From contig JBCCDM010000001.1 of the NCBI GenBank assembly GCA_039030795.1, forward strand, positions 1 to 44,447: a stretch of DNA of 44,447 nt. Direction: 5' to 3'. The notes beneath the pieces were generated by a model that was not told the DNA's origin, ran no database searches, and saw nothing but the letters and a program-made list of their open reading frames with translations. Shown piece by piece: positions 4,533-44,087 of the stretch (position 1 is its first letter; every line of letters starts with the position of its first letter). A program made the translations under genes and the position numbers. Source of the stretch: Cyanobacteria bacterium P01_A01_bin.84 (GTDB taxonomy: Bacteria > Cyanobacteriota > Cyanobacteriia > Cyanobacteriales > Nostocaceae).

Positions 4533-4591
4533 TGGTAGTAGCTGTAGTAGTTGGTATACTAACATTAAAACAAGCATTGAGAGGTCGGTCA

Positions 4592-21772: not shown

Positions 21773-22873
21773 ATGCTAGCGGTAATCTATAAAAAGCCAT
21801 CATTTCTTAAAACCTTGAAATATGTTTTAAGTAAAGAAGATGCTGCAATTATTACAAAGAATATTGCTGGAGAATCACCCAACACCCTGAACAAAGAATT
21901 TCTGGAAAGCAAAAATACCAATCACAGGGTTAAAAACCATTGCGCTCACTTGATTTTAAGTTTACCCAAGCAAGAAAGCGTTGATGATTTAACCATGAGT
22001 TACATTGCAGGTGATTTCCTTGAATCAATGGGATACCGCAACAGTAATAATATTACCCAAAATGTTCCGTTTGTTGCTGTACGTCATCATGATAGGGAAC
22101 ACGAGCATATTCATATAGTGGCTTCGCGGGTACGATTTGATGGTAGCTGTGTTTCTGATTCCTGGGATTATCTCAAAGCTCAGAATATAACCAGAACTAT
22201 TGCTGCTAAATATGATTTTTCTGTAGCACCAGTCAGCAGTAATGCTGTTGCACAAGATTTAGCAGCAGCAGGTATTGATGCTACCGTTAGCCCCAATCGC
22301 TCTCCTTCTATTCGTCAAATTAATGCTAGTAGTAAAGAACCTTCTTTTAAGGAAACTATTGGTAAAGCAATTGAAAATGCGCTAATCAATAGTAAAAACC
22401 TTGCTGAGTATACGTCTAATTTATACGATAGTGGCGTAGTAGTTAAAGCCAAGTTTGATGATAAAGAGTTGCTTGGCTTTTCTTATGCTTACAAGGGTAA
22501 ATATGCTGCTGGCAATCAAATATCCCGCCGCTATAGCTGGAATAATATTCAAACAGAATGGGAGTTAGAATATAGTCCTACTCGTGATTATGAACCATTA
22601 AAACAAATTGCAGAAGTTGCTATTAAGTATAGAGGTAAAGAATTACCAGCATTAAGCATTTCTCACATGGCTAACCCTCATGCTAAGCTTTATACCCAAA
22701 TGAAAGCTATGCTTAATAAATCAGAGGAGGAAGAAATTTACCCCGACATCCCGGTAGAAGATGATTTGACAGAAAAATTATCTACAGTGGAAGTTAAGGA
22801 ACTAAAAAGTAATCCCGGTAAAGATAATCAATTACCAAAAACTAAGAAGAAAAACAATCAAATTGAATTGTAA
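21773..22873 (+). CDS. MobA/VirD2-family relaxase
   Basis: The histidine triad is VAVRHHDREHEHIHIVASRV, with CAHLILSLP upstream and an N-terminal Tyr region (LKYVLSK). It is 366 aa with a Lys-rich tail. Confidence 0.75.
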   Translation: MLAVIYKKPSFLKTLKYVLSKEDAAIITKNIAGESPNTLNKEFLESKNTNHRVKNHCAHLILSLPKQESVDDLTMSYIAGDFLESMGYRNSNNITQNVPFVAVRHHDREHEHIHIVASRVRFDGSCVSDSWDYLKAQNITRTIAAKYDFSVAPVSSNAVAQDLAAAGIDATVSPNRSPSIRQINASSKEPSFKETIGKAIENALINSKNLAEYTSNLYDSGVVVKAKFDDKELLGFSYAYKGKYAAGNQISRRYSWNNIQTEWELEYSPTRDYEPLKQIAEVAIKYRGKELPALSISHMANPHAKLYTQMKAMLNKSEEEEIYPDIPVEDDLTEKLSTVEVKELKSNPGKDNQLPKTKKKNNQIEL

Positions 22874-28679: not shown

Positions 28680-28960
28680 GCCATGAATTGGTGCAAAACG
28701 GATAATTCCGCGTCCTTTCCACAGTTGAATTTTGTAATCTCTCGAATAGTTCCCTTCTTTGTAGTTTTGGGAGTCGTAGACTCAACCACTCAGAGGATAG
28801 TTTCTAGAAACTACGAAGGTGCCTACTCTACACCCGCTATAAGTCCGAAGATGGCGCAACCCATCGGCACTAGCCGGACTATAGACCAGACAAGTCACCT
28901 TGCGAAGGCTTCCCCAGAGTCCACAAGGAACTCCAAGTCTTTTCGATGACGCAGTAGGGC
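28680..28960 (-). ncRNA. candidate omega-RNA scaffold of the IS607-like tnpB
   Basis: Dense nested hairpins, given in plus-strand notation: AGTTTCTAGAAACT palindrome, GAGTC-gta-GACTC, and AGTCCG..(GATGG-cgcaac-CCATC)..CGGACT. It overlaps the tnpB 3' end and runs to the inferred element end. Confidence 0.4.
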
Positions 28961-30250: not shown

Positions 30251-30297
30251 GAGTCCGACCTCCTCTGGTTTGTTTGTATGTTCTTGTTATGTACGAT

Positions 30298-31742: not shown

Positions 31743-32318
31743 TTAATAACGCCGATGAATATTCGTGTATTCATCCAAATCTACATCTTCTGGCAAAGAA
31801 TCAATGTCCTCGCCATTGCGGATATCTTTAAGCAGCTGTTCTCTATCTGTAATTACTTCGGTTTTACCCCACCTATCCTCGTATTCTCGCTTGCTGTAGT
31901 TATATCCCCACACTGTTTCAGCCAGCTTACAACCTTCAGCAATATTCTGATAATCCCTGTAAAACTGCTGTTGCAAAGTAAGTTCATGGTTCATCAAGTA
32001 TGGGTCAAGCTTATCCAAAAATTCAGGTCTAAACTGCCTATCTTCAACCCGGTACTTCTTCCTAAATTCGCTATTAGAAGGACCAAAGGCAATTTCCTCG
32101 GGTGAATATACTAGCCATACTTCGGGGTTGTCTGCGTCTTCGGCTTGGGCTTTTTTGTAACGCTCTGAAAGCGAAAAATAAAAACGAGCAGAACCTTTTG
32201 GACTTCTTTTTACATATTCTGAGTCCTCTTTAATAGTTCCGTTCTTATTCATATGTTTAGTACGTGAATTAACAAACCGCAAAGCACGCGCATTAGGAAT
32301 TACTTTTTCAATCGGCAT
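31743..32318 (-). CDS. hypothetical protein divergent from the giant ORF
   Basis: 191-codon ORF only 35 bp from the giant ORF start, so one of the two starts may be further in. No family recognised. Confidence 0.5.
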   Translation of the reverse strand: MPIEKVIPNARALRFVNSRTKHMNKNGTIKEDSEYVKRSPKGSARFYFSLSERYKKAQAEDADNPEVWLVYSPEEIAFGPSNSEFRKKYRVEDRQFRPEFLDKLDPYLMNHELTLQQQFYRDYQNIAEGCKLAETVWGYNYSKREYEDRWGKTEVITDREQLLKDIRNGEDIDSLPEDVDLDEYTNIHRRY

Positions 32319-32353: not shown

Positions 32354-35300
32354 ATGTCTATCATATCCAAGCATTTTGATACTCGCCTCGGTCAGAACAT
32401 TGAAGCTTACGACAAGGAAGCGAAAAAACAGCAAAAACTAAATACTTCAGCACCTAAGACAGAGAAAATCACATCACTCAAAGAAGAACTCAATAACACG
32501 CTTCTGGAATATTTTTTCCCAGACACAGAATTCTCATTCGGACACGGTGACGAGTTCACTACAATAGATGAGCTTAAAAATCATCCCGATGACCATAAAT
32601 TATTAATCTCTTCAAAATCCCGATACTTGTATGCAGACGAATCGGCATTTGAAATAGTTGACGAAATATTCCCGGATAGGAAGGATAGGGGTGCTTACGG
32701 CTCAATACTACTTGGTGAATGTAATAAGGGAAAAGATTCCCCTCCACCACTATCAGGCAAATTAAACATATTAATAGTCGATGATGAAACCGGCGAGAAT
32801 GGAGGAATTATTGACAAAGAACAAGCTTATAGACTTACTGGAGACTGTTACGGTCAAATATCGGACGAAAAGTACAAAGAACTCACCGGACATAAAGAGG
32901 GAGACAAGTACCGCGTAATTCAGCATAGATTCGGATGGAAACCCCAAGAAGCTGACGAGCAATATCGCTTCGGGAAGGGTACGTTACGTCCAATGGATTT
33001 CAATGATATACAATATGAAACTGGAAAAGACTCCAAAATTGACTTAATTGTCCCCATATCATCGCTAAAAGGAACTGACAAACAACGTCCCGGTGGTGCG
33101 CTAAAACCCCAAATCAAGCCAGGATTGTACGAGCTTGATATTTGGATTGGTGAAAAATCTTTGTCTCAGCAAGGTAAAACCGCTACTTCCCAAATATGGG
33201 CATCATTCCCAGAAGGACAGAAGGATGCTTTGGAAAAGAGCAATGCAGAGGCTTTCAAGCTGTATTACGATTCTAAAGACCCCCGCAAGCTAGCTCAACT
33301 GTATTGCGAGAAGTACGAAAAGCGTAAGAAATTTGACCAAGAACGTTTACAGAAAGAAGAAGAATTAGCAGCATCTGGTAAAACTAGCACAATATCCAAA
33401 GAAGATTTAACGCCAGATGACCAAGAAGACGAGAAATCAAACCAGGTCGAAGATTTGATGATGTATCGCTTGGTTAAAGCTGACTTAACATCAGGTCACG
33501 GTCAATTACTAGAAACAGAAAAGGTCAAGCGAGAACTAGAGAAATTTGTAGTCAGGGAATACAAAGATATTGCCACTTTCAAAAATATCACCTTTGATAG
33601 GGCAATGGTTATCCCTTCCAAAGACCTAAAAAATGGTGAAATTTGCATACCAGGTAGAATTGATGACGACAAAGAAATACTAAACTTCCGCGCACCATTC
33701 CTCAACTCAAACGGGATGTGCGTTTCGCAACAAAAGCACACCGACGATATTCTTGGTCCCGACGGTAAACCAATTGAAGGCGTAATTTGCGTATCCGACG
33801 AAACAACTGAACGCATCTACGATAGGGTAACAAAGCAAATTAAAACTGCTTTAGCTCAAGTAGATGACGAAAAAATCCTAAATAGCTTACAATCATTCGT
33901 TGAAGGTGATATTACCTCAACCAAAGATGTCAAATTCAAAGATATCGGTGATTTGGAAAATATGCAGCGGGTTCGTTTCATAGATGCTCTCAACGAACAA
34001 ATTACCGAGTTGCAAAACCTTGGATTTGAAGTAGAATTACTGCCCAGAGAAAGCGAACAGGAACGCCAAGGTAGAGACTATGACGGAGATTGTGTTGGTT
34101 TCACCCTTGCTGAAAATTTTCCCAACCTAACCGCAGAAGCGATAGAGCGTAACAAGCCGGAAAACGCTTATCTACCAACAATCAAGGAAGCTAAGCAATC
34201 CTTCTACATCGGTGAAACAACAGAGCAACCCGAATTTGAAGCAATCGCACTCCAAATGTCAGACGGCATTAGCGTTGGTGTAATCAACAATCACCTTACA
34301 GCATTAGAAGCGCTTGAATCGGAAATTGAAATTATCCGCAATTCTGGCGATCGCCAATTAATAGCTAATTATGTTGATACGCTGAAAAGCAGTTACAGTA
34401 AAGTCCTGGAAAGAAACAACAAACAAGAAGACCCTTCTAAAAAGATTCCAGAAGCGCACCGCGACCACATGGAGCGCATCACAGAACTTGCTGATGCTAC
34501 AAATAGTCCGGAGGTGGTTGATAGAATATTTGACCTTAATCGGGATTTTTATCGCAGGCTAAATGAAGAAGCTTCTTACCAGAATCAAATAGCGGTTGAT
34601 TTATTCAAATCTAATAGAATACCGGATACAGATGCCATTAAACGTAACAGCAGCTATCTGCACCGCAACGTTAATTACATCCGCGATAAAAAGCAAGAGG
34701 GAGTATATCAAAATAAAGTAGTAGAAACCACGGGATATTCCCCTACAGAAATTAATATTAGAAGAGTTAATCGTCATTTCGCCAAACATAAGCTAGAATC
34801 TCGTCCCATATCCCAATTCCAGAATTTGTTTAAGGATATTGAATTTAGCTACCAGCAAAAAGCAGAAGCTACTCTTGCTAAGAGAAATTTTGATAAGTAT
34901 TTTAACGAAGCAGCTGAACTACAAAAACGTCAGAAGATTGATGAAGGACAGTCGGTATCCGTCCGCACCAGGAGTGGTTTAAATTTTGAAATTACTAATG
35001 TCGTTAGAACCGGCAACTTTAGTAAATTAAAAGAAGCGCTTGAGCAAGATAAAGCTTTCAGAATTGAGGTAAAAGAAAGCAAAAATAAAGCCAAGCCCCA
35101 CAAATACGAGGTATACGCCCAGTTCGATAATGAAAAAAGTGCTTTGGGTCATCCTAAATACCAAAAAATTGGTACGGTAATGCGGGATAACGAACACATA
35201 TTCAAAGATATGGATTCGTTACCCAAAAATCTTGATACGAGAATCAATGAATTTAAGGCAGCTATCAGCGACGCGCAGATAAAAGTTAGGTTTGATAAAG

Positions 35301-38300
35301 CATTAGAATCAGCAGACGCATTCCGCAGTTCTATACCGGAAAACCAATTAAAACAATACGCTGCTGCTACTTGGTCAATTTCTACTAAGAGAGATACTAG
35401 CGATACCGAATTAGGTTTTAATAAAAGCGCTAGTTTCGCTTTCAATGCTTTTACAAATGAAATAGTTGATAAAATAGAAGTTCTCCAGTTCGACGAGTTT
35501 ACGGTAAGTAACCTAAAAGAAGCTGAATTACAATCTGATTCAATTGATTTTAATACTCCCCAAGAAATTAGATTCGGCGCAGCAGCAATTGATAAAGATG
35601 GCGACACTGAAATTAAAAATGTTATTCAGTTAAAGACACCAGATGGGGAATATAAAGAAATTGGGGATATTTCTGCTACTGATGGTAGATTACCGTTAGG
35701 TACCACAGCATCCGCAACAATCAGTGGTGGTAATTTATCAACTGCAACCCTTAGTATTGATAACGTTTCAGTTAAAGTTAACGAACTAAATAAATACGAT
35801 ACTAAGGTAAATTCGGGTGAAGAAATCGAAGTATTAATTCAAGAGAGTGCTAGCTACAGCGACGGAGAAACTAAGATATTTATTGGTGACGATTATCTTG
35901 GTAAACTGCGACCAGAATCTCACGAAGAAGCGGTTAAAAACAATTGGTTGCAAAATAACCAACCCTTACAATTAAAGCTTGATTCAATTGTTGATGAAGG
36001 TAAACACCCTTATGCCATCGCTACAACCGGGGAAGGAAATAAACTTTACGTCAATATTGAAGACCAGTACAAATTGATTGATGAAGAAATGCAGGCTGTA
36101 CCTAATAAATTTAAGGGGTATAGCTTTGATGCAGAACAGGTACAAGCGCGACCTATAGTAGAAAAAACAGGACAGAAACCAATTGTCTACGTTAATGATA
36201 AGCCAGTAGGAACTATCAGCCAGGAAGATTTTAAAAAGATAGAACCAACTGGAGCATCTTTAATACCAAAGCTTGCAAAAATTGAAGGCAACGTTACTAC
36301 TTTAAAAGTTAGTTTAGATAAAGAAACTGTTCAATATCCAGAAACTTGGGTAAAGGAAAGGGAAGAGGTAACTGGTAAAGAATCTATCGCTATCAACACT
36401 TCCGAAGAATCTTACAAAGTTGATGAAACTAGCAGCAAACTTTATCAAAAACTAACCACAAGACAATCAATAGCATTCGAGGATACCGTTGATAGCTATA
36501 CTAATACCTTCAGCTTAGCTGTTGATGAGCGACAACTAGAAGCCACAGAAAAATACCTTAATAAGAATAATGTTGATTTTCAAGTTACAGAAAAGGAAGA
36601 CAAACCACTTGAAACCAATAAAGGTATGCGAGTAATTACCATAGATAAGGAATCACTCGACGACAAATTATTAGAAACGATAATTAGTAGAACTGGTGGA
36701 ATAAAATCTGACAAGTTTGAAATCCCAGAAATTCCTATTATTAAAGATGAATCCGTATATTATTTTGACCCAAAAGCTAATTATGGCGACAATGAATATC
36801 CTGCAATCGGTTTAGCTGTACCCGCACCAGATAGTCACATAGTAGACGAATTCCTCGGTAAGTATAATTTAGAAATATCTGGATTTAATGATAATAATAT
36901 CTATTACTTTTCTCTTATTGATGTTGAAAATTTTCCTTATGAAAAATACAACGAATTATACCCATCATCAGAGGAAGAATTTACAGAATACAAACAAGAT
37001 TTAGTTAGGTTAAAAAAGGATTTAAGTTCGCATCTAGGTAATCCTCTTGACTTAAGTGATGAAAATAATTTCAACACTTTTGATAAAAAAGTAGAAACAA
37101 TTCAAGAAAAACTCGATACTGGTTACAGTACCTTAGAAAGAAACAGAGATATTGGAACAGAATATCAACAAGCATTACAGAAGCTACCAAAAAGACCCAA
37201 TATTGAAGGATATGTAGAGCCACCAGCGCCAGACGTGAGTATCGTCAAAAAGCGCAAAGAAGCTCGTGCGATATTGCGTATTGGAAGTGCCTATAATCCC
37301 CAAACCCAAGAAAGTGGCGCATCTGCGATACTGGTATCTAATGATGGCAAAAATCAAATTGCACAAACTGCTAATTACTACCCTTCAGAAAAGAGTGATT
37401 TAAAAGCAGCGTACCAATCATTAATTCAAGGCTTGAACGAAGCAAAGGATAGGGGATACAAAGCGGTCAGAATCGAAACTAGCAATAATAACTTATACCA
37501 AAGATTGAAGTGCAATCCTCAGTATATGCACTTTAACGGTAAGAACAAAGAGTGCGAACCCCTCCATAAACAAGCAACAGATTTAATCAAAAGCTTTGAA
37601 TGGGGAATAACTCCGAAATTTACCAGCTATAAAAAATATCCCACTGCCGCACAAGCAAACCAAGTTGCTAATAATGCAATCGCTCAGAAAAGTTCGGTTA
37701 ATGATTTTGGTAGGAGTGAGCCACAACAAGCATCCGCGACACCAAATCAAACTCAACAAGTAGCATCGGTATCATCACCTTCACCAAACCAGCCTCAACA
37801 GGCATCACCTACACCTGCACCAAAACCAACTGTAAGTAGACAATCCCCACCACCCAAACAACAAACCGCAAGCAAGAAAAGAACGGGACTTACCGAAGGA
37901 CAAAAAGAAGCTCTATCAAAGATGATGGAGTTTTCCAAACAACCAAGAACCGATAAAGATAATAACGAATTCCTGCTTGAAGGTTATGCTGGAACGGGTA
38001 AAACTTTCGTAATTCAACAATTTCTTAAAGAGGTGCGTAAGTCGGGAGAAAATCCCAGAATCGCATTTACTGCTCCTACAAACAATGCGGTCAAAGTACT
38101 TAGGCAAATGGCAGAGAAACAAGGCATGACCGGGTTTGAAGCCAAAACTACGCATAAACTCTTAGGGCTAAAAAGAAATATTGATAAGATGTCAGGTGAT
38201 GTTAATTTCACCAGAAAAAAGACAGATGATAGACCAGAGCTTAAATACGATTACATAGTTGTTGATGAAGCATCAATGCTCAATGAATCGTTATACGAAC

Positions 38301-41300
38301 ATTGCAAAGAAGCTTCTCAAGCTGGTGTCAAAATAGTCTACATGGGCGACCCGGCACAACTTCCTCCGGTGAATGAATCAGAGAGTATGGTGTTCTCCCA
38401 AGTTAAAAATCGTTCTGAGCTTACTGAGGTGGTGCGCTACGACGGCGATATGGCAAGAATCGCCGAAGATATTCGTAATAATCTTAACTCAAAAAACCCT
38501 ACGCAAATACGGAATTCTCAAGACGGAACGGTCATTGCATTATCAAAAGAAGGCTTCAAAAATAAAGTCGAGGAATTATTTACTAGCGATGAATTCAAAG
38601 CAGACAACAGCAGCATCAAAGTTATAGCTTACACAAATAATAGAGTTGATGAAATCAATAAGCTTATCAAAGACAAGCTATATGGAGAAGATGCTCCAGA
38701 ATACTTGCCGGGAATGCGAATAATCGCCCGCGACCCGGTGAAAGGTGAATTTGGTACAGCACTTGATACTGCTGAAGAGATGACAATTACCAAAGCAAAA
38801 AAGGGTAAGGACGGCAATTTAGATATATGGATGTTAGAAGGGATCACCGAGAGTGGCGAACGCGCAGAATTCGATGTACTCGACTCCAAAAGTAAACCCC
38901 AGTTTCAAAGAGAACTTAGCAATTTAAGAAAGGAAATTTACAACGAGCCTATAGCACAACGAGATTGGTTGCCCTATTATGATTTAGCCGAACGATATGG
39001 TAACGTCCGTCCAGCCTATGCAATCACGGCACATAATTCTCAAGGTAAAACTATTCCTCAAGGTATAGTAGACCAAAACAACCTTAATCTACGCCTATCA
39101 ATGGCACTCAAAGAGGAAGACGGACAAGAACGTGCCAGAGGAATTAAAGAATATAATCAACTACGATACGTAGCAATGACTCGCTTTCAAAATGCAGTTT
39201 ATGTTGGTACCAATCAAAGAGAACAAGAAATAAATCACACTCAAGTAGAAAGTACCGATAATATAGATAGGCAAAATATTCAAGAATGGGCAAGGTATGC
39301 ACCTAAAGGTAAAGAGGGCTATGAACTATCGTCGGCCGGTGATAGTAGATTCAGCGCGCTAAATGCCAAGCTCAAAGATGGCAGAACTATCGAAGAAGCA
39401 TACCAACTTGACGTTAAAGGATACCGCTCTCAAAGTGATAATTGGCGGTTGGGGAAAGGTAAGCCACCGCTGACACCAATGACAAAAGAAGAAAGCTATC
39501 AGAAATATAAGGAATTGTGGCAACAGTGGGCTAACGAAAATCCCCAGCTTATCGATGAATTAGCTCAGAAATCTCAAGGCAAGGTACTTACCGATAAATT
39601 TGCCAGCACAAATATATCCCAAGCACGCGCATTAGTTGAGATATTAAATGAACGAAATATCCAAAGTCCGCAGCAAACACCAATATCTTTACCTTCATCC
39701 CAAGAAGCAGATAAAAGTAAATCGTTAGAAATAGTAGGTAAAATCAGCGAAAGCAAAGTAGACCAATTAAGACAGCATCTAGAAACCAATTACCAACCTT
39801 TAATGGATGCTGATAAATCCAGCTATGCTCCTGGAAGACAAGTAGCTTGGGTTGAAGCAAAATGGGAGTTAAAAGATAAAGATTTCTCTCCAGGGGTTAA
39901 AGACGACAAGTTAATGGAACTTGTCAAACAAATTTACCCCGATGCTGACATAGCACTTGTCACCTATTCGGAACAGCAAGGGCAAGGTATCGATTACCAC
40001 CGAGATGATTCCTACGCCGCAGCGGAAGCACGTAGTATTAATATCGGTGATTCTATGTGGGGGTATCAAGCATCAAAACAAGGGATGGTAGCATATGACC
40101 CAAACGCAAATGATAATGCTCCAATTCAAGAATTTAAACTGGAGTCAGGAACTGTAACGCGCTTCAACTCCAAAAATCCCCATGCAGCTTTAGAAACTAG
40201 TGCAGGAAGATGGAGTATAAATGTTTGGTCGATTAAAAATGATTTAGGTAAAAATAATAGCGTCCGCGAAAAGTTTGATAAGTTTGTTGAATCCAATCAA
40301 CCACCAACTGCTGTAGTTGAAACCAATACCGATTTAACTATTAAAGAATCGGAATGGACTCGTGGTGGTGAAATCAAAATTGAGCGGAGTTACCAAAATA
40401 TACAAGATGCAAATACAGCAGGAATAATTAGATTAGGTAACGCTACTCAAACACGAGCCGCTACACCAAAAATACCAGATAATCCCCAAATATCGGGTAA
40501 AACCATACCAATGACTTGGGAATTAAACCAATCCCCCGAACTAAAAAGTGTAAGCACTACAATCGATGCTATGCGCGGTAATGGTAGAGTGCATTCCACT
40601 AGGGCACAAAACTATTACCAAACCTACGGCATCAAGGAAGGAGATATCGCCGTAGCAAAAGGTAAAGATAATAAACAAGTAGCTTTTAGAGTTGGTAAAC
40701 AATACAAAATTACCCAAGCTATAATTAATAATCCCGATTATCAAAAAGCTTGGCAAAATTGGGAGAAACATTCAGTTAAAGAACTTACCGAGAATCAAGC
40801 TGCTAAAGGGAAAGAACGACAGCTATACGGCTTATTCATGGAGCCTTTAGGTGATTATCAAAATGGTAAAATTATTCCCTTTGAACAACATAAACAGCAA
40901 GAGCGCACTCTTAATATCACCTTCGATGGTGCCTCGCGTAATAATGGTAAACCCAACGCTCAAGCTTCAGCAGCTGCGGTACTTACCAATCCAGAAGGAA
41001 GAACTAAACAAGTTAGTCAATATCTAGGAAATAAAACCAATAACGAAACCGAATTCCAAGCTGCGATTATTGGCATGAAAGCAGCCCAAAAATTTGGGTA
41101 TAAATCTATTCAAATTCAAGGTGATTCGCAGTTAGTAGTTGAAGCGCTTCAAGGCAATAGAAATATCAAAGCAGCTAATCTAAAACCCCTCTACGAAGAA
41201 GCTAAATCTTTACTGAATTCATTTGATAAAGCTGAAATTAGCTATATTCCCAGAGAGCAAAATAAAGCTGCCGATGCACTAGCTAATAAAGCCCTTGATA

Positions 41301-43399
41301 ATGCTCAAAATATCAACCCCATCGCCAATATTGAGCCAGTTACCGAAGCTACTGCCAAGCATATGGTTAAAGATAAGGCTATGGCAGAGTTTGCGACGCA
41401 GTATATCGGCATCAGTGCAGCATCACCAGATACCCCATCAAGTACCAGGAATTATGCTGAAGCCTGGGGTGATAAAGCAAATACCGGCTCCTACACCAAT
41501 AAAGATGTAATCATGATTAGTGGCTCCGGTCCCTGGCGCGGGGTAACTCAAAGTCAGATTGAGGAAAACTTTAATAAAGAATATATACCGCTACTTGATA
41601 AAGCAATTGAGGCTAAGAGTAATATCGTTGTAGGTAATGCTAAAGGAACAGATGAATTAGTAAAAAATTATCTACAAGAAAAGGGATATAAATTAGAACA
41701 AACATCAAATAACTACGCTCAGTTATCTTCTCAAACTAGAGAAATACAGGCTTCTAACAAAATTTCAAAAATCACGAGTATAGGACAGTTGGGTGCTGAT
41801 TTAGGAGCATTGGAAGCAGCCAAAAATAAAGGTATAAAAACCGGAGGTGTTGCAGCAAACGGATATTTTACAGAAAAAGGTCAAGCACCAGATTTACTTC
41901 AAGGTTACGGACTAAGTGAAGGAGAAAAAGGTAAAGGATTCGGTCAAACTTACAAAAACGCTTATTCGGCTAATATCCGCAGTAGCGATGCAACAGTATT
42001 AATAGGACGTATTCTTAATCGCAACGAAGATACAGATAAGGATTTAATTGAAATTATCAGTCGCTACAACAAACCGTGCCTAGTAATCCCCAAAGAGGAA
42101 GTATTATCTAACCCTCAAGCAGCTGGAGAAAAGATTGCTCAATTTGCATCTCAAAATAATGCTCAAAATTTAAATATAATTGGCGAGCGAGAAAGTCATG
42201 CACCGGGGATGCAAAATGCCGTACAGGAAGCTATCGGTAAAACCTTAGAGCTAAATTCTCGTACTGAGTATAAAGTTAAAAATCCACCCTTTGAGCAGAA
42301 TGCAGCAGATTTGAAAACTGAACAAGTCGCGGCTAAACAGAAAAATGAACAACCAGATAAAGAGTCATCATTCATAAAAACACAGAGCAAAAGCCAACTT
42401 ACACAAAATGTTGGTACTACTATTAGTGCCTACAGTAATGATGGTTTAGGAGCAGCTCTATCCCCAGAAACTAAGCTAGCCTCCGATAATGGTAATTTAC
42501 AGAATAATTACCCTGTTAGCTATCAAGACAATAAAGAATTACCCGCTGGTAATTATGGTGGCGAAAATTACCCAGATGTCAAACCTATAGGTCAACCCTT
42601 TGTATCAGCGAACCAAGCCTATCATGCTTACAAAGAGCCGTCAGAGCAAGCAGCACAAAAGATAGCCAGGATGACGGAAGTACTCAAAGCCAAATTAGAA
42701 CAGCACCCAAGATTAGTTAGTGCGATCGCAAAACGTGGTGGTGTTGAATTCCTTGAAAATTCCACTCATATTTCTAGTTCCCAAGATAAATTTTGGGATG
42801 GTAGAGGTAAAGAATCTAAATTTATTCAGGCTTTGAGTGCGGCTTACACCACCATAGAAAAAAGTCAAGGTAAAGTATCGACACAAGAAGCAGATTCAGT
42901 GGCTCAATCCCTCCAGAAATGGACGGAGGATGCACAATTCCTTAATCGCAATTATGTAGACACAATCAATCAAATCCAAAATATATATGCTAATACCAAA
43001 AAGCCACTAACGGAAAATCACTTAAAAACTATGGATAAAGATAGTAAGGATGCGGCAGTTACTAAAGAAGTTAAAAACCTAGTCACGCGACTTACCAATA
43101 CCTTAGTGCAGGATAATAGGGAAGACGGTTCTAAACTAGTTCAAGGTAAAAGATATATTTTAGAATCTAATCAAAATACTGGCCTTACTCGTATAACTAG
43201 TACGAGTACTGCTGATATTTTATTGAGTATAGAAAACAATCAGGTTAAAGCTAACAACCTAAATAGTGACGTATACCAATCTTTGAAATCAGCAGTGCAA
43301 GCAGTAGATGAAAAAATAAAAGCTGCTCAAGAAATAACGGGTTATAATAACAGTAATTCTGAACGCAATATGACAGAAAAAATTCAAATAGCAAAGTAA
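32354..43399 (+). CDS. 3,681-aa multidomain 'polyvalent' protein
   Basis: Uninterrupted 11,046-nt ORF. All minus-strand ORFs inside it are short shadows. The domains (RdRP/YonO-like polymerase, degenerate RNase H, Dda/RecD-like helicase, AlkB-like, RNase HI, SLOG x2, NADAR-like) are listed as separate features below. Confidence 0.9.
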   Translation: MSIISKHFDTRLGQNIEAYDKEAKKQQKLNTSAPKTEKITSLKEELNNTLLEYFFPDTEFSFGHGDEFTTIDELKNHPDDHKLLISSKSRYLYADESAFEIVDEIFPDRKDRGAYGSILLGECNKGKDSPPPLSGKLNILIVDDETGENGGIIDKEQAYRLTGDCYGQISDEKYKELTGHKEGDKYRVIQHRFGWKPQEADEQYRFGKGTLRPMDFNDIQYETGKDSKIDLIVPISSLKGTDKQRPGGALKPQIKPGLYELDIWIGEKSLSQQGKTATSQIWASFPEGQKDALEKSNAEAFKLYYDSKDPRKLAQLYCEKYEKRKKFDQERLQKEEELAASGKTSTISKEDLTPDDQEDEKSNQVEDLMMYRLVKADLTSGHGQLLETEKVKRELEKFVVREYKDIATFKNITFDRAMVIPSKDLKNGEICIPGRIDDDKEILNFRAPFLNSNGMCVSQQKHTDDILGPDGKPIEGVICVSDETTERIYDRVTKQIKTALAQVDDEKILNSLQSFVEGDITSTKDVKFKDIGDLENMQRVRFIDALNEQITELQNLGFEVELLPRESEQERQGRDYDGDCVGFTLAENFPNLTAEAIERNKPENAYLPTIKEAKQSFYIGETTEQPEFEAIALQMSDGISVGVINNHLTALEALESEIEIIRNSGDRQLIANYVDTLKSSYSKVLERNNKQEDPSKKIPEAHRDHMERITELADATNSPEVVDRIFDLNRDFYRRLNEEASYQNQIAVDLFKSNRIPDTDAIKRNSSYLHRNVNYIRDKKQEGVYQNKVVETTGYSPTEINIRRVNRHFAKHKLESRPISQFQNLFKDIEFSYQQKAEATLAKRNFDKYFNEAAELQKRQKIDEGQSVSVRTRSGLNFEITNVVRTGNFSKLKEALEQDKAFRIEVKESKNKAKPHKYEVYAQFDNEKSALGHPKYQKIGTVMRDNEHIFKDMDSLPKNLDTRINEFKAAISDAQIKVRFDKALESADAFRSSIPENQLKQYAAATWSISTKRDTSDTELGFNKSASFAFNAFTNEIVDKIEVLQFDEFTVSNLKEAELQSDSIDFNTPQEIRFGAAAIDKDGDTEIKNVIQLKTPDGEYKEIGDISATDGRLPLGTTASATISGGNLSTATLSIDNVSVKVNELNKYDTKVNSGEEIEVLIQESASYSDGETKIFIGDDYLGKLRPESHEEAVKNNWLQNNQPLQLKLDSIVDEGKHPYAIATTGEGNKLYVNIEDQYKLIDEEMQAVPNKFKGYSFDAEQVQARPIVEKTGQKPIVYVNDKPVGTISQEDFKKIEPTGASLIPKLAKIEGNVTTLKVSLDKETVQYPETWVKEREEVTGKESIAINTSEESYKVDETSSKLYQKLTTRQSIAFEDTVDSYTNTFSLAVDERQLEATEKYLNKNNVDFQVTEKEDKPLETNKGMRVITIDKESLDDKLLETIISRTGGIKSDKFEIPEIPIIKDESVYYFDPKANYGDNEYPAIGLAVPAPDSHIVDEFLGKYNLEISGFNDNNIYYFSLIDVENFPYEKYNELYPSSEEEFTEYKQDLVRLKKDLSSHLGNPLDLSDENNFNTFDKKVETIQEKLDTGYSTLERNRDIGTEYQQALQKLPKRPNIEGYVEPPAPDVSIVKKRKEARAILRIGSAYNPQTQESGASAILVSNDGKNQIAQTANYYPSEKSDLKAAYQSLIQGLNEAKDRGYKAVRIETSNNNLYQRLKCNPQYMHFNGKNKECEPLHKQATDLIKSFEWGITPKFTSYKKYPTAAQANQVANNAIAQKSSVNDFGRSEPQQASATPNQTQQVASVSSPSPNQPQQASPTPAPKPTVSRQSPPPKQQTASKKRTGLTEGQKEALSKMMEFSKQPRTDKDNNEFLLEGYAGTGKTFVIQQFLKEVRKSGENPRIAFTAPTNNAVKVLRQMAEKQGMTGFEAKTTHKLLGLKRNIDKMSGDVNFTRKKTDDRPELKYDYIVVDEASMLNESLYEHCKEASQAGVKIVYMGDPAQLPPVNESESMVFSQVKNRSELTEVVRYDGDMARIAEDIRNNLNSKNPTQIRNSQDGTVIALSKEGFKNKVEELFTSDEFKADNSSIKVIAYTNNRVDEINKLIKDKLYGEDAPEYLPGMRIIARDPVKGEFGTALDTAEEMTITKAKKGKDGNLDIWMLEGITESGERAEFDVLDSKSKPQFQRELSNLRKEIYNEPIAQRDWLPYYDLAERYGNVRPAYAITAHNSQGKTIPQGIVDQNNLNLRLSMALKEEDGQERARGIKEYNQLRYVAMTRFQNAVYVGTNQREQEINHTQVESTDNIDRQNIQEWARYAPKGKEGYELSSAGDSRFSALNAKLKDGRTIEEAYQLDVKGYRSQSDNWRLGKGKPPLTPMTKEESYQKYKELWQQWANENPQLIDELAQKSQGKVLTDKFASTNISQARALVEILNERNIQSPQQTPISLPSSQEADKSKSLEIVGKISESKVDQLRQHLETNYQPLMDADKSSYAPGRQVAWVEAKWELKDKDFSPGVKDDKLMELVKQIYPDADIALVTYSEQQGQGIDYHRDDSYAAAEARSINIGDSMWGYQASKQGMVAYDPNANDNAPIQEFKLESGTVTRFNSKNPHAALETSAGRWSINVWSIKNDLGKNNSVREKFDKFVESNQPPTAVVETNTDLTIKESEWTRGGEIKIERSYQNIQDANTAGIIRLGNATQTRAATPKIPDNPQISGKTIPMTWELNQSPELKSVSTTIDAMRGNGRVHSTRAQNYYQTYGIKEGDIAVAKGKDNKQVAFRVGKQYKITQAIINNPDYQKAWQNWEKHSVKELTENQAAKGKERQLYGLFMEPLGDYQNGKIIPFEQHKQQERTLNITFDGASRNNGKPNAQASAAAVLTNPEGRTKQVSQYLGNKTNNETEFQAAIIGMKAAQKFGYKSIQIQGDSQLVVEALQGNRNIKAANLKPLYEEAKSLLNSFDKAEISYIPREQNKAADALANKALDNAQNINPIANIEPVTEATAKHMVKDKAMAEFATQYIGISAASPDTPSSTRNYAEAWGDKANTGSYTNKDVIMISGSGPWRGVTQSQIEENFNKEYIPLLDKAIEAKSNIVVGNAKGTDELVKNYLQEKGYKLEQTSNNYAQLSSQTREIQASNKISKITSIGQLGADLGALEAAKNKGIKTGGVAANGYFTEKGQAPDLLQGYGLSEGEKGKGFGQTYKNAYSANIRSSDATVLIGRILNRNEDTDKDLIEIISRYNKPCLVIPKEEVLSNPQAAGEKIAQFASQNNAQNLNIIGERESHAPGMQNAVQEAIGKTLELNSRTEYKVKNPPFEQNAADLKTEQVAAKQKNEQPDKESSFIKTQSKSQLTQNVGTTISAYSNDGLGAALSPETKLASDNGNLQNNYPVSYQDNKELPAGNYGGENYPDVKPIGQPFVSANQAYHAYKEPSEQAAQKIARMTEVLKAKLEQHPRLVSAIAKRGGVEFLENSTHISSSQDKFWDGRGKESKFIQALSAAYTTIEKSQGKVSTQEADSVAQSLQKWTEDAQFLNRNYVDTINQIQNIYANTKKPLTENHLKTMDKDSKDAAVTKEVKNLVTRLTNTLVQDNREDGSKLVQGKRYILESNQNTGLTRITSTSTADILLSIENNQVKANNLNSDVYQSLKSAVQAVDEKIKAAQEITGYNNSNSERNMTEKIQIAK
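32900..34640 (+). other. domain: eukaryotic-RdRP / YonO-like two-barrel RNA polymerase core
   Basis: Four collinear motifs: VIQHRFGW..RFGKGTLRP (32915-32992), ILNFRAPFLNSNGMCV (33677-33724), RDYDGDCVGF (DYDGD = 34076-34090), and GISVGVINNHL (34265-34297) followed by QIAVDLFKSNRIPD (34586-34627). Confidence 0.6.
37262..37690 (+). other. domain: RNase H-fold, catalytic carboxylates apparently all substituted
   Basis: It aligns with the second RNase HI domain (..GYKAVRIETSN.. vs ..GYKSIQIQGDS..). It has G, A, T and N at the positions of the D-E-D-D tetrad. Confidence 0.5.
37888..39215 (+). other. domain: Dda/RecD/TraA-like SF1 helicase
   Basis: LTEGQKEAL, Walker A GYAGTGKTF, APTNNAVKVL, Walker B YIVVDEASML, VYMGDPAQLPPV, AITAHNSQGKT and RYVAMTRFQNAVYV. 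Confidence 0.8.
39800..40240 (+). other. domain: AlkB-like 2OG-Fe(II) dioxygenase
   Basis: GIDYHRDD (H2549-x-D2551, 39998-40006), NPHAALE (H2610, 40181-40183) and GRWSINVWS (R2619, 40208-40210). Confidence 0.6.
40909..41310 (+). other. domain: canonical RNase HI
   Basis: LNITFDGASRNNG (D2858), TNNETEFQAAI (E2898 or the Glu two residues later), IQGDSQLVV and REQNKAADALANKAL. Confidence 0.8.
41497..41700 (+). other. domain: SLOG-superfamily-like Rossmannoid (DprA/LOG/YpsA-like), weak call
   Basis: VIMISGSGPWRG ... NIVVGNAKGTDELVKNYLQEKGY resembles the Gly-rich loop plus the G-x-A-x-G-x-D signature. Confidence 0.35.
41765..42250 (+). other. domain: YpsA / 'molybdenum-cofactor-carrier'-type SLOG domain
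   Basis: ITSIGQLGADLGALEAAKNKGIKTGGVAANGYFTEKG ... NIRSSDATVLIG ... KPCLVI ... LNIIGERESHAPG matches the GGQTGxDRAALDxA..GG.CPxGR..E..NVAGPRES pattern. Confidence 0.6.
42411..42870 (+). other. domain: NADAR (YbiA/DUF1768)-like
   Basis: FVSANQAYHAYK (cf. F.S.EH.FQA.K), KLEQHPRLVSAIAKRGGVEFLENS (cf. KF.QNP.L...LL.TG...L.E.S), DKFWDGRG (cf. D..WG.G) and FIQALSAAY. Confidence 0.5.
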
Positions 43400-43403: not shown

Positions 43404-44087
43404 ATGAGTAATACAGCAGTAATAGATAAAGTTAATTTTCTTAATAAAGGAAGCGGCTATTCAAACAATAGAATGGCATATGAATTATCAAAATTATTAA
43501 AAGAACGCAGCATAGAAAAAACAACACCACAACAAGAAACTTCCGCAAGAAAAGAATTTAGTCAAGTATTCTCATCGAAAAGTAATCCTCAGAAGGATAG
43601 AGAGGAATTAGCCAACCAATTCCGAGATAGATTCCTTAAACAGATGAAGCTTGAAGCGCCAGCAGCATCTAATATCAAAAAAAGTTTAGAAGTAAATAAT
43701 CAAAAGACTGAAGTAGAAATGGGTAAAGACAAAATAAAGCTTGAATTGCCCAAAATTGAAGAAGTACGTAAAGCTATTCCTAAAATCATACAAACTATTA
43801 TCTTTAAAGGTAAAGGCAAAGATACCAACAATAAATCGTTTGAAACTCATAGTTATAAAGCTAACCTAAAACTTGATGGCGACAATCAACAATTGACTAT
43901 AGAACGTAACAATGATAAATCTGTAGCCTTAGAAGCGATCAAAAAAGGTAAGGGAGAATTTGAAATTACCAACACCTCTATAGCTAAAGATGAGTTGAAA
44001 CAAATACAAAGCTCTATCAAACAACAATCACAAACCTCAACAAGAAGTCCTCGAATTAAAAACAAAAACAGCGATTTAGAGATGTAA
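43404..44087 (+). CDS. hypothetical Lys-rich protein carrying the shared C-terminal module
   Basis: 227 aa, starting 5 nt after the giant ORF stop. THSYKANLKLDGDNQQLTIERNNDKS..IAKDELKQIQSSI aligns with the C-termini of the giant protein and both zeta-like kinases. Confidence 0.5.
   Translation: MSNTAVIDKVNFLNKGSGYSNNRMAYELSKLLKERSIEKTTPQQETSARKEFSQVFSSKSNPQKDREELANQFRDRFLKQMKLEAPAASNIKKSLEVNNQKTEVEMGKDKIKLELPKIEEVRKAIPKIIQTIIFKGKGKDTNNKSFETHSYKANLKLDGDNQQLTIERNNDKSVALEAIKKGKGEFEITNTSIAKDELKQIQSSIKQQSQTSTRSPRIKNKNSDLEM

What the first reader, a model, noticed from the sequence alone, without database searches (positions are those of the whole stretch)
32900..34640. Eukaryotic-type RdRP / YonO-like double-barrel polymerase motifs, including an exact DYDGD loop
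Seen directly, and collinear:
- VIQHRFGW-(9 aa)-RFGKGTLRP. Compare the Q-x-R-x-G-G-x-KG segment of cellular RdRPs, the counterpart of the Lys-rich barrel of RNAP beta.
- ILNFRAPFLNSNG. Compare R-N-P-x-L-H-P-G-D.
- GRDYDGDCVGF. The DbDGD Mg-binding loop is DYDGD in Neurospora QDE-1 and NADFDGD in beta-prime.
- GISVGVINNHL, then QIAVDLFKSNRIPD. Compare LG-x-I-x-N-x-H and AVDF-x-KTG.

Established knowledge: cellular RdRPs, the SPbeta prophage single-chain RNAP YonO and the virion RNAP of crAss-like phages all belong to this two-barrel family.

Inference: a mobile-element-encoded single-chain RNAP, primase or transcriptase could act on incoming DNA independently of host RNAP. Fusing it to a helicase and RNase H would suit priming or R-loop handling.
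Basis: partly seen in the sequence, partly recalled or inferred. Interest (0 to 1): 0.85.

Follow-up and report, generated by a model that had tools for sequence, protein, structure and literature searches.

The report
Plasmid giant protein with RdRP-like polymerase
The first 1,100 residues of a 3,681-residue cyanobacterial plasmid protein form a single-chain "two-barrel" RNA polymerase related to eukaryotic RNAi polymerases and phage YonO, a family that comparative-genomics papers had already noted but nobody has tested biochemically.

Summary
All six motifs lie collinear in one 3,681-aa ORF (window 32354-43399, +), at aa 188-758.

- The eight residues that define two-barrel RNA polymerases map to D164, R192, K208, R446, P448, D575, D577 and D579. 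All are at least 90% conserved in 51 diverse homologues.
- AlphaFold2 models (pLDDT 81 and 86) show two beta-barrels in beta-like then beta-prime-like order.
- Foldseek's best viral matches are phage proteins, two of them annotated as RdRP (E 3e-6 to 1e-3), followed by crAss-like phage proteins. The best PDB match is Arabidopsis RDR2, then RNAP largest subunits, but those E-values are weak (0.02 or more).
- Sequence profiles alone fail: no Pfam RdRP hit, and hhalign against YonO gives P 0.01-0.03.

The family has 394 clusters at 50% identity. Every member with an organism name is cyanobacterial, mostly on plasmids and often beside a relaxase gene. Its C-terminal tails vary; here the tail carries a degenerate RNase H, a Dda/RecD-like helicase, an intact RNase H and a YpsA SLOG domain.

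Earlier papers (2010, 2012) already describe cyanobacterial YonO/RdRP-like proteins fused to RNase H and propose a primase role. This is therefore a new member of a known, uncharacterised kind. The function is inferred: RNA synthesis on plasmid DNA for priming or establishment.

The parts
32354..43399 (+). Giant ORF of 3,681 aa. The N-terminal ~1,100 aa are conserved across the family; the rest is a variable multi-domain tail.
   Evidence: ORF list; Pfam, NCBIfam and PHROG scans; the family profile covers aa 1 to ~1100 in 394 cluster representatives.
32354..32749 (+). N-terminal conserved domain (aa 1-132), mixed alpha/beta, function unknown.
   Evidence: Conserved in the family consensus. Mostly confident in the model, but aa 21-36 have pLDDT below 50.
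32750..33193 (+). First barrel (beta/Rpb2-like DPBB1, aa ~133-280). It carries GD164CYGQIS, QHR192 and GK208GT, with an ~11-aa loop inserted between the R and K motifs.
   Evidence: Strands at aa 133-142, 166-170, 189-195, 205-214, 231-234, 257-270 and 274-277. D164, R192 and K208 are at least 90% conserved. hhalign pairs them with YonO TDGCG and VKGLLVP. The assignment to QDE-1 D709/R738/K743 follows PMC2919709.
33194..33589 (+). Helical linker between the two barrels (aa 281-412), including a low-confidence acidic stretch at aa ~338-366.
   Evidence: Secondary structure and pLDDT.
33590..34108 (+). Second barrel (beta-prime/Rpb1-like DPBB2, aa 413-585). It carries NFR446AP448FLNSNG and the Mg loop, and is split by an ~90-aa helical insertion (aa 485-572).
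   Evidence: Six strands at aa 413-422, 429-431, 441-446, 456-460, 477-481 and 580-585. R446, P448 and G578 are invariant. Foldseek gives local matches of 81-98 columns at rmsd 1.9-2.9 A to the Pol IV largest subunit. With the insertion removed, hhalign aligns the region to YonO 467-548 (P 0.012).
34076..34090 (+). DYDGD catalytic loop (D575, D577, D579). The family consensus is RDFDGDCIG.
   Evidence: It lies directly before the last barrel strand, as NADFDGD does in beta-prime (placement in beta-prime is from established knowledge).
34109..34939 (+). Helical region after the second barrel (aa 586-862), with the conserved VGxINN (aa 641-646) and NQIAVDxFKS (aa 744-753) motifs. The long helix at aa 639-664 is a candidate bridge-helix equivalent (inference only).
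   Evidence: hhalign pairs VGxINNxxT with YonO IGEISNNITK.
34940..35653 (+). C-terminal part of the conserved module (aa 863-1100), mixed beta/alpha (strands interleaved with long helices at aa 973-1043).
   Evidence: The family profile extends to here; model secondary structure.
37286..37633 (+). RNase H-like domain 1 (aa ~1645-1760), probably inactive.
   Evidence: BLASTP against RNase H domain 2 gives E 1e-8. The acidic catalytic positions are replaced: IGSAY versus FDGAS, and ETSNN versus QGDSQ (read directly from the sequence). Pfam RVT_3 reports two stretches.
37856..39478 (+). SF1B Dda/RecD-like helicase (aa 1835-2375).
   Evidence: PHROG Dda-like helicase, E 9e-83. Pfam AAA_30, AAA_19 and PIF1. 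NCBIfam RecD2 and RecD.
40907..41311 (+). RNase H domain 2 (aa 2852-2986) with the D-E-D-D residues present.
   Evidence: Pfam RVT_3 E 5.7e-35 and RNase_H E 4e-8; NCBIfam RNase HI families. The catalytic residues were read from the sequence.
41771..42241 (+). Circularly permuted YpsA SLOG domain (aa 3140-3296).
   Evidence: Pfam PF12694, E 3.3e-19.
21773..22873 (+). MobA/VirD2-type relaxase gene of the same plasmid. It is the conserved upstream neighbour in related plasmids.
   Evidence: Pfam Relaxase, E 7.6e-29. It is 43% identical to the pCC7120beta relaxase, which lies ~1.2 kb upstream of the homologous giant gene. The same arrangement occurs in Chroococcidiopsis pCHRO.01 and in a TARA scaffold.
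31743..32318 (-). Divergently oriented 191-aa gene, 35 bp from the giant ORF's start, function unknown.
   Evidence: Weak but reproducible homology to the equivalently placed genes of pCC7120alpha (E 1e-6) and pCHRO.01 (E 1e-4). No Pfam hit.
43404..44087 (+). Downstream 227-aa gene, a conserved neighbour.
   Evidence: BLASTP E 5e-8 to the gene directly after the pCC7120beta homologue.

Best explanation
Shown: aa ~1-1100 of the 3,681-aa plasmid protein form a single-chain two-barrel (double-psi beta-barrel) nucleotide polymerase of the RdRP/YonO-like branch.
- The first barrel (aa ~133-280) supplies D164, R192 and K208.
- The second barrel (aa 413-585, interrupted by a ~90-aa helical insert) supplies R446, P448 and the metal-binding D575/D577/D579.
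- Together these are the eight residues shared by all two-barrel RNA polymerases, so the domain is very probably catalytically active.

Inferred: the enzyme makes RNA on plasmid DNA, most likely single-stranded DNA. It would do this either to prime DNA synthesis (complementary-strand synthesis after conjugative transfer, or vegetative plasmid replication) or to transcribe plasmid genes independently of the host polymerase during establishment. The same polypeptide carries a Dda/RecD-like SF1B DNA helicase and an intact RNase H. Those fit unwinding DNA and removing RNA from RNA:DNA hybrids. The remaining domains (SLOG and others) vary among homologues, as in the 'polyvalent' proteins of conjugative elements.
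For: Fold
- AF2 models have pLDDT 81 and 86 and pTM 0.78 and 0.82, with two six-stranded barrels.
- The top four Foldseek BFVD hits are phage proteins, two annotated RdRP, at E 3e-6 to 1.1e-3 and prob 1.0. crAss-like phage proteins follow.
- In the PDB, RDR2 is the best full-length match, and RNAP largest subunits fill the top ranks for both models.

Active site
- All eight signature residues defined in PMC2919709 are present in order and at least 90% conserved across 51 sequences down to ~21% identity.
- An hhalign alignment to the YonO family is collinear for five motifs.
- Some YonO relatives carry Pfam RdRP PF05183, and YonO is a proven DNA-dependent RNAP (PMC5467207).

Context
- The window is plasmid-like: ParA/ParB, relaxase and Zeta toxin/KfrB genes.
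- 80 cyanobacterial plasmids carry a homologue, 43 of them typed conjugative.
- A relaxase lies next to or near the gene in pCC7120beta, pCC7120alpha, pCHRO.01 and a TARA scaffold.
- One divergent member sits directly after clamp-loader-like and PolA genes. The same clamp-loader-like pair is in this window at 803-2469.
- RNase H is either fused (here) or encoded just downstream.
- QDE-1 copies ssDNA into RNA (PMC9508822).
- Aravind et al. 2012, citing Iyer and Aravind, proposed a primase role for such enzymes (PMC3417536).
Against: - No sequence-only test is significant. There is no Pfam RdRP hit at E<=10 in 35 members or at E<=0.01 in 20 more. There is no PDB sequence or profile hit. hhalign against YonO gives P 0.012-0.15.
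- PDB Foldseek E-values are all 0.02 or higher. With the longer model, RDR2 drops out of the top 50.
- I could not superpose coordinates, so the spatial clustering of the eight residues is not verified.
- Template type, product (RNA or DNA), priming versus transcription, and any transfer into recipient cells are all untested.
- One homologue (P0078) has a PrimPol plus PriCT-2 primase fused upstream of this module. That argues against a purely redundant primase role.
- Gene neighbourhoods are not uniform.
Confidence: 0.8

Rival explanations
1. Dedicated transcriptase. The polymerase transcribes a set of plasmid genes from double-stranded DNA, as YonO does for SPbeta late genes, or from incoming DNA, as the virion RNAPs of crAss-like phages and P23-45 do. 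It would have no role in priming.
For: YonO is a promoter-dependent DNA-dependent RNAP (PMC5467207). crAss-like phage proteins appear among the Foldseek matches. P23-45 fuses a two-barrel RNAP to a giant 5,002-aa protein that enters the host (abstract). The PrimPol fusion in P0078 suggests priming is handled by another domain.
Against: No promoter, sigma-like factor or target operon was identified. The fused or adjacent RNase H and SF1B helicase fit handling of RNA:DNA hybrids better than mRNA production. In one member the gene sits next to PolA and clamp-loader genes.
Confidence: 0.3
2. True RNA-dependent RNA polymerase. It would make double-stranded or antisense RNA for an RNA-based regulatory or conflict system, as in eukaryotic RNAi.
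For: The best full-length PDB match is RDR2. The best viral matches are annotated RdRP.
Against: No Argonaute- or Dicer-like partner was found among the window ORFs scanned with Pfam. The fusion partners act on DNA or RNA:DNA hybrids. Characterised relatives (QDE-1, YonO) use DNA templates. The 'RdRP' labels on phage proteins are automatic annotations.
Confidence: 0.08
3. Two-barrel DNA polymerase, analogous to archaeal PolD, serving as the plasmid's own replicase.
For: PolD shows that the fold can polymerise DNA (abstracts of PMC7708050 and PMC4996933). There is an association with clamp-loader-like genes and with a PrimPol fusion (P0078).
Against: No PolD chain appears in the top 50 PDB matches for either model. 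A PolA gene accompanies the divergent member, so a DNA polymerase is already present there.
Confidence: 0.05
4. Chance motifs, or an unrelated acidic-loop fold such as TOPRIM, or an inactive relic.
For: A lone DxDGD is expected 0.05 times by composition, and a second, apparently non-conserved copy exists at aa 1080. Sequence profile methods find nothing.
Against: The motifs are conserved across 394 clusters. No TOPRIM or primase fold appears among the structural matches. The top matches in two libraries are two-barrel polymerases.
Confidence: 0.03

Closest known systems
Cyanobacterial 'YonO-like'/RdRP-like proteins noted by Ruprich-Robert and Thuriaux 2010 (PMC2919709) and by Iyer and Aravind 2011, as cited in Aravind et al. 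2012 (PMC3417536)
   Same: [quoted passage not shown] A primase role has been proposed. This is almost certainly the same family: homologues sit on the PCC 7120 and A. variabilis plasmids, sequenced species that were probably available to those studies (my inference).
   Different: I could not read the primary paper or the supplements, so identity of the family is inferred. Three features are not mentioned in the passages I could read: linkage to a relaxase on plasmids, the constant ~1,100-aa module with highly variable multi-domain tails, and adjacency to replisome genes.
YonO of Bacillus prophage SPbeta (single-chain DNA-dependent RNAP)
   Same: Two barrels in one chain in beta-like then beta-prime-like order. 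The motifs are collinear: D-G-x-G, R..KG, RSP, DxDGD, IGxxxN. Both are encoded by mobile elements.
   Different: There is no significant sequence similarity. YonO is an 839-aa stand-alone protein. The protein here has a ~90-aa insert in the second barrel, an extra N-terminal domain and a 2,500-aa tail. YonO relatives hit Pfam RdRP; this family does not.
Eukaryotic cellular RdRPs (QDE-1, RDR2; Pfam PF05183)
   Same: RDR2 is the best full-length PDB structural match. The Mg loop is the same DYDGD as in QDE-1 (PMC2919709).
   Different: The Pfam model is not matched. TM-score is only 0.32 over 766 columns. The host is bacterial, on a plasmid, with DNA-acting fusion partners.
Virion RNAPs of crAss-like phages (gp66) and of Thermus phage P23-45 (tape-measure-fused RNAP)
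   Same: A two-barrel RNAP embedded in a giant multi-domain protein of a mobile element. For the phage enzymes, the protein enters the new host with the DNA and transcribes early genes (abstract). crAss-like proteins are among the Foldseek matches (E 0.03-0.4).
   Different: Here the element is a plasmid, not a phage. Transfer of the protein is purely hypothetical. No viral contig encodes a relative detectable by sequence.
Polyvalent proteins of conjugative elements and phages (Iyer et al. 2017, PMC5512222)
   Same: One polypeptide with many unrelated enzymatic domains. The gene lies beside a relaxase on plasmids, many typed conjugative. Domain tails differ among orthologues. A nucleic-acid polymerase or primase module is a common component.
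   Different: That survey lists only Toprim, PrimPol and N4-type RNAP modules. It states that cyanobacteria show a paucity of polyvalent proteins. None of the marker domains used there was detected here by Pfam.

Membership tests
Two-barrel (double-psi beta-barrel) RNA polymerase superfamily | Two DPBB domains that together form the active site, in one chain in beta-like then beta-prime-like order. | tested here: met
   AF2 secondary structure shows two strand clusters. Foldseek top hits are two-barrel polymerases in both BFVD (E down to 3e-6) and PDB (RDR2, NRPD1, Rpb1). Barrel topology itself was not checked on coordinates.
Two-barrel (double-psi beta-barrel) RNA polymerase superfamily | DxDxD (DbDGD) metal-binding loop in the beta-prime-like barrel. 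| tested here: met
   D575-Y-D577-G-D579. D575, D577 and D579 are at least 90% conserved and G578 is invariant. The loop lies immediately before the last barrel strand.
Two-barrel (double-psi beta-barrel) RNA polymerase superfamily | R-x-P motif in the beta-prime-like barrel (Rpb1 R446/P448; QDE-1 R962/P964). | tested here: met
   NFR446-A-P448FL. Both residues are invariant in 51 sequences. hhalign aligns the motif to YonO LRSPHL.
Two-barrel (double-psi beta-barrel) RNA polymerase superfamily | An acidic residue plus two basic residues in the beta-like barrel (QDE-1 D709, R738, K743). | tested here: met
   D164, R192 and K208 are at least 90% conserved. The D-to-R spacing is 28 aa against 29 in QDE-1. 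An 11-aa loop is inserted between R and K. hhalign pairs these residues with YonO D249 and K271. The assignment rests on alignment, not superposition.
Two-barrel (double-psi beta-barrel) RNA polymerase superfamily | Template-dependent nucleotide polymerisation. | not testable with these tools
   Needs biochemistry.
Eukaryotic-type RdRP, Pfam PF05183 | Match to the family HMM above the gathering threshold. | tested here: not met
   No hit at E<=10 in 35 members or at E<=0.01 in 20 divergent members. No hit for the window protein at E<=1.
YonO-like proteins | Detectable sequence or profile homology to YonO. | tested here: inconclusive
   BLASTP and hhalign against single YonO are not significant. 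Profile-profile comparison gives P 0.012-0.15 but is collinear over five motifs.
Cyanobacterial RdRP-like plus RNase H family (Iyer and Aravind 2011, via PMC3417536) | Cyanobacterial RdRP-like polymerase combined with an RNase H domain. | tested here: met
   RNase H (Pfam RVT_3, E 5.7e-35) lies in the same polypeptide. All named homologues are cyanobacterial. The primary description could not be read.
Polyvalent proteins of conjugative elements | Several unrelated catalytic domains in one polypeptide, with architecture that varies among orthologues. | tested here: met
   Polymerase, two RNase H domains, SF1B helicase and SLOG are present here. Other members carry different tails.
Polyvalent proteins of conjugative elements | Encoded by a conjugative element, linked to transfer genes. 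| tested here: met
   A relaxase is in the window and is adjacent in four other loci. 43 of 80 host plasmids are typed conjugative. No T4SS genes lie within this window.
Polyvalent proteins of conjugative elements | The protein is delivered into the recipient cell with the DNA. | not testable with these tools
   Needs a translocation assay.

The most novel reading that the evidence does not exclude
The relaxase-linked giant protein would be the plasmid counterpart of the virion RNA polymerases of N4, crAss-like and P23-45 phages. In this reading it is made in the donor (or expressed first in the recipient) and acts on the incoming single strand. Its two-barrel polymerase lays down RNA, as primers or early transcripts, without host RNAP or DnaG. 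Its own helicase and RNase H then process the RNA:DNA hybrid. That would give bacterial RdRP-like enzymes a defined biological role and a plausible ancestral activity (ssDNA-templated RNA synthesis) for the eukaryotic RNAi polymerases.
Probability: 0.3. Interest if true: 0.75.

Novelty: new member of a known kind. Interest (0 to 1): 0.5.

Why it matters
Bacterial relatives of the eukaryotic RNAi polymerases have been called an enigma since 2010 (PMC2919709). Only YonO has been characterised.

This family has several features that make it a practical route to their function:
- It is large: 394 clusters at 50% identity, and 254 loci in representative genomes.
- It is unannotated in the records examined ('hypothetical protein' in nearly all, 'Ribonuclease HI' in two) and Pfam misses the polymerase module.
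- It is present in two copies on the plasmids of the genetically tractable Nostoc/Anabaena PCC 7120.

Its consistent plasmid and relaxase context, its fused helicase and RNase H, and its occasional adjacency to PolA and clamp-loader genes yield a concrete, testable hypothesis: ssDNA-templated RNA synthesis for plasmid priming or establishment.

It also suggests that cyanobacteria have a class of polyvalent-like plasmid proteins that the 2017 survey, which reported a paucity of polyvalent proteins in cyanobacteria, did not describe.

If the enzyme proves to be an ssDNA-dependent RNA polymerase or primase, it would support the proposal that eukaryotic RdRPs derive from mobile-element primases.

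Tried and rejected
Sequence searches that found nothing useful
- Direct PDB sequence and profile searches returned only spurious helical hits such as FliS and globin.
- Pfam, NCBIfam and PHROG found nothing in aa 1-1800.
- Pfam scans of 55 family members never hit RdRP PF05183.
- BLASTP and hhalign against YonO, alone or as a 22-sequence profile, were not significant. This held even after enlarging the family alignment and cutting out the insertions; the best result was P 0.012.
- YonO has no solved structure detectable by sequence in the PDB copy.
- tblastn against 50,697 phage genomes and a pattern scan of IMG/VR viral contigs found no viral relative.

Structure search
- A longer AF2 model (aa 1-1100) was more confident, but its PDB Foldseek matches were weaker than those of the 760-aa model.

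Alternatives rejected
- TOPRIM or another acidic-loop fold: no such structural match.
- Chance DxDGD: the catalytic copy is conserved, while the second copy at aa 1080 lies where the family consensus shows no conserved residue.

Context and literature
- The divergent 191-aa neighbour is not homologous to the equally long 'methyltransferase' at the same position in pCC7120beta.
- PDB sequence searches of the C-terminal 386 aa and of aa 2376-2849 gave nothing.
- The primary papers (Iyer et al. 2003; Iyer and Aravind 2011/2012) and the supplements of Ruprich-Robert and Thuriaux 2010 are not held.
Full report
**1. What is there**

The finding lies inside one very long ORF, window 32354-43399 on the + strand, 3,681 aa. 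The numbering D575/D577/D579 is correct.

A DxDGD pentapeptide alone is weak evidence. Composition predicts 0.05 per protein of this size. A second copy (DKDGD, aa 1080) is present and lies where the family consensus shows no conserved residue. The case therefore rests on conservation, collinearity and fold.

**2. The family**

A word-indexed search with aa 141-900 found 95 proteins. All come from cyanobacteria, nearly all are annotated 'hypothetical' (two as 'Ribonuclease HI'), and several are on plasmids.

An exhaustive profile search of 1.84 billion cluster representatives found 394 clusters at E<=1e-3 and 172 at E<=1e-30. Lengths reach 3,686 aa. The match nearly always covers profile positions 1 to ~1060, which is the N-terminal ~1,100 aa.

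Divergent members that carry organism names are 'Cyanobacteriota' MAGs. A scan of one genome per species found 254 loci. The best 80 are all cyanobacterial: mostly Nostocales, with some Chroococcales and Hydrococcus. Many are on plasmids and some genomes have several copies. tblastn against PLSDB found the module on 80 cyanobacterial plasmids. Of these, 43 are typed conjugative, and they include both large plasmids of Nostoc sp. PCC 7120. No phage genome or viral contig encodes a detectable relative.

**3. Conservation of the motifs**

The alignment has 51 sequences, with members down to ~21% identity to the window protein. The positions that are invariant or at least 90% conserved are:
- D164, in GDCYGQIS
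- Q190 and R192
- K208-G209-T210
- R446 and P448
- D575, D577, G578 and D579
- N646
- Q745, A747, V748, D749, K752 and S753

These results come, with the same picture in the 35-sequence alignment.

Ruprich-Robert and Thuriaux (PMC2919709) define eight residues shared by all two-barrel RNA polymerases. In QDE-1 they are D709, R738, K743, R962, P964, D1007, D1009 and D1011. These correspond to Rpb2 D837/K979/K987 and to Rpb1 R446/P448 plus the aspartate triad. They map one-to-one, in order, to D164, R192, K208, R446, P448, D575, D577 and D579.

The spacings are similar for D-to-R (28 versus 29 aa). The family has an ~11-aa loop between the R and K motifs. It also has a ~90-aa helical insertion between the R-x-P motif and the Mg loop.

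**4. Fold**

An AlphaFold2 model of aa 141-900 built on 35 homologues has mean pLDDT 81 and pTM 0.78. A model of aa 1-1100 built on 51 homologues has pLDDT 86 and pTM 0.82. Both show two strand clusters:
- aa 133-277, containing D164, R192 and K208
- aa 413-481 plus 580-585, containing R446/P448, with DYDGD immediately before the last strand

This is the arrangement expected of a beta-like barrel followed by a beta-prime-like barrel.

- 'RNA dependent RNA polymerase [Podoviridae sp. ctxqo3]', E 3e-6, 821 columns
- two unnamed phage proteins, E 3.8e-5 and 6.8e-4
- 'RNA-dependent RNA polymerase [Siphoviridae sp.]', E 1.1e-3

Proteins of crAss-like phages followed at E 0.03-0.4.

Against the PDB, the best match was Arabidopsis RDR2 (7eu0_M; 766 columns, prob 0.97, E 0.024). 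Next came 81-98-column matches at rmsd 1.9-2.9 A to the Pol IV largest subunit (prob 0.97-0.99), followed by looser, lower-probability matches to Pol II, archaeal and poxvirus largest subunits.

The longer model again ranked RNAP largest subunits first, but with low probabilities, and RDR2 was absent from the top 50. No PDB E-value is below 0.001. No TOPRIM, primase or PolD chain appears among the top matches.

**5. Sequence-only links are marginal**

- Pfam RdRP (PF05183) is not matched by the window protein or by any of 55 family members.
- PDB sequence and profile searches give nothing.
- I extracted YonO from the SPbeta record and built a 22-member profile. Some of those relatives carry PF05183, which ties YonO to the RdRP family.
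- hhalign of the family against YonO gives E 0.15.
- It gives P 0.026 with a more diverse core alignment, and P 0.012 for the second barrel with its insertion removed.

These values are not significant, but the alignment is collinear and pairs the expected motifs:

| This family | YonO |
|---|---|
| GDCYGQIS | TDGCGMI |
| FGKGTLRP | WVKGLLVP |
| LNFRSPFLNS | DVLRSPHLYR |
| RDFDGDCIG | FDNDGDKAL |
| VGxINNxxT | IGEISNNIT |

My reading is that this is a very divergent branch of the RdRP/YonO-like clade. It is recognisable by structure and active-site signature, not by current HMMs.

**6. The rest of the protein and its surroundings**

Downstream of the ~1,100-aa module the window protein carries:
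- an RNase H-like domain (aa ~1645-1760), paralogous to the second one (E 1e-8), which appears to have lost the acidic catalytic residues
- a Dda/RecD-like SF1B helicase (aa 1835-2375)
- an intact RNase H (aa 2852-2986)
- a circularly permuted YpsA SLOG domain (aa 3140-3296)
- several conserved stretches without any database match

Other family members share the N-terminal module but have quite different tails. One has a PrimPol plus PriCT-2 primase in front of the module (P0078).

The window itself looks like a plasmid. It encodes ParA/ParB, an actin-like segregation protein (weak Pfam match), a MobA/VirD2 relaxase, Zeta toxin/KfrB proteins, clamp-loader-like AAA+ genes and IS elements.

In pCC7120beta and Chroococcidiopsis pCHRO.01 the homologous giant gene follows a MOBP relaxase gene, with a small divergent gene in between. 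pCC7120alpha has a MobV relaxase ~8 kb away. A TARA scaffold has NikA/MobC plus a relaxase placed divergently, and a separate RNase H gene immediately downstream. The window's relaxase is 43% identical to the pCC7120beta one. The small divergent gene and the downstream gene are weakly conserved. In the window, an IS607-like insertion and a few other genes separate the relaxase from the giant gene.

Other neighbourhoods show ArdC-N/peptidase M78 with an SNF2 helicase and an MmeI-like methylase, ParA/McdB, or toxin-antitoxin pairs with a topoisomerase. One divergent member sits directly after DnaX-like, PolA and delta/delta-prime-like genes.

**7. How it most likely works**

Shown: the fold, the complete conserved active-site signature, and the fusion and plasmid context.

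Inferred: the module is an active, Mg-dependent, template-directed polymerase that makes RNA on plasmid DNA. The arguments for a DNA template, probably single-stranded, are as follows:
- The characterised relatives use DNA. YonO is a DNA-dependent RNAP (PMC5467207). QDE-1 copies ssDNA (PMC9508822).
- The fused partners act on DNA and RNA:DNA hybrids.
- The gene is linked to conjugative transfer and, in one case, to replisome genes.

I cannot decide whether the RNA serves as primer or as early transcript. Priming is favoured by the RNase H, by the PolA and clamp-loader adjacency, and by the earlier proposal of Iyer and Aravind cited in PMC3417536. Transcription is favoured by the analogy with YonO, crAss and P23-45 and by the PrimPol fusion in P0078. 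Delivery of the protein to recipient cells is speculation by analogy with polyvalent proteins.

**8. Comparison with what is known, and novelty**

Ruprich-Robert and Thuriaux (2010) already listed a cyanobacterial group among ~50 'YonO-like' proteins carrying the eight invariant residues, and called their role an enigma. Aravind et al. [quoted passage not shown] That description fits this protein. Homologues are on the PCC 7120 and A. variabilis plasmids, sequenced species that were probably available to those studies (my inference).

The following points do not appear in the passages I could read:
- the relaxase and plasmid linkage
- the constant ~1,100-aa module with a polyvalent-like variable tail
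- the adjacency to replisome genes

The 2017 polyvalent-protein survey lists only Toprim, PrimPol and N4-type polymerases. It says cyanobacteria show a paucity of such proteins. I found no experimental work on the family.

Verdict: a real feature, correctly interpreted. It is a new member of a known but uncharacterised kind, of moderate interest because it offers a tractable route to the function of bacterial RdRP-like polymerases.

Noticed in passing
window 28895-30888 (- strand); also 4532-5926 (+): An IS607-like pair lies between the relaxase and the giant gene: a 196-aa protein that by eye looks like a serine-recombinase TnpA (30298-30888; not scanned with any tool) plus a 451-aa TnpB-like protein (28895-30250; assigned by eye, not scanned). 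In related plasmids the relaxase and giant gene are nearly adjacent. A second TnpB/OrfB_IS605 ORF is at 4532-5926 (Pfam).
   Followed up: partly
window 803-1702 and 1588-2469 (+); L006:1-7561: Clamp-loader-like genes (DNA_pol3_delta_C; DNA_pol3_delta2 plus AAA) sit on this plasmid. In a divergent relative (GCA_000331305.1) the same gene types, plus a family-A DNA polymerase, lie immediately upstream of the RdRP-like gene. This may indicate a plasmid-borne replisome in which the two-barrel enzyme is the primase.
   Followed up: partly
window 37286-37633 (aa ~1645-1760 of the giant ORF): The first RNase H-like domain is a paralogue of the second (E 1e-8). It has IGSAY in place of FDGAS and ETSNN in place of QGDSQ, so it has probably lost the catalytic acidic residues.
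   Followed up: partly
window ~39480-40900 and ~42240-43396 (aa ~2376-2850 and ~3297-3681): Conserved tail modules have no Pfam or PDB sequence hit. They recur in other family members (P0217, P0218, P0222, P0302, P0356). One contains GIDYHRDDSY...NPHAA...RWSINVWS, which by eye resembles a 2OG/AlkB-like oxygenase. Another contains YPVS(F/Y)(R/Q)DN...F(V/A)SAEQAY...LEQHP...GG..WL...FW(E/D)G(K/R)G, which by eye resembles a NADAR/YbiA-like domain. These are untested guesses.
   Followed up: no
P0078 (Prochloraceae cyanobacterium protein, 1,304 aa): One homologue has a PrimPol plus PriCT-2 primase fused in front of the two-barrel module; the module matches at residues 404-1303. This bears on whether the two-barrel enzyme is itself the primase.
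   Followed up: partly
window 16612-17775 and 20578-21486 (+): There are two Zeta-toxin-type kinase genes. The first is fused to a KfrB domain. A zeta toxin gene also lies upstream of the relaxase in Chroococcidiopsis pCHRO.01.
   Followed up: no
window 35591-35605 (aa 1080-1084): A second DxDGD pentapeptide (DKDGD) occurs in the same ORF, in a region where the family consensus shows no conserved residue. It serves as a useful internal control for chance occurrence.
   Followed up: yes
L010 (MAG Cyanobacteria bacterium J06635_10), L011 (Calothrix parasitica NIES-267 plasmid1): These are the closest relatives of the window's polymerase module in representative genomes, at 88% and 60% identity. 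The window probably comes from a plasmid of a related cyanobacterium that is absent from PLSDB, where the best identity is 52%.
   Followed up: no
window 6085-6894 (+): A uroporphyrinogen-III synthase (HemD) gene lies on the plasmid, next to the ParA/ParB genes.
   Followed up: no
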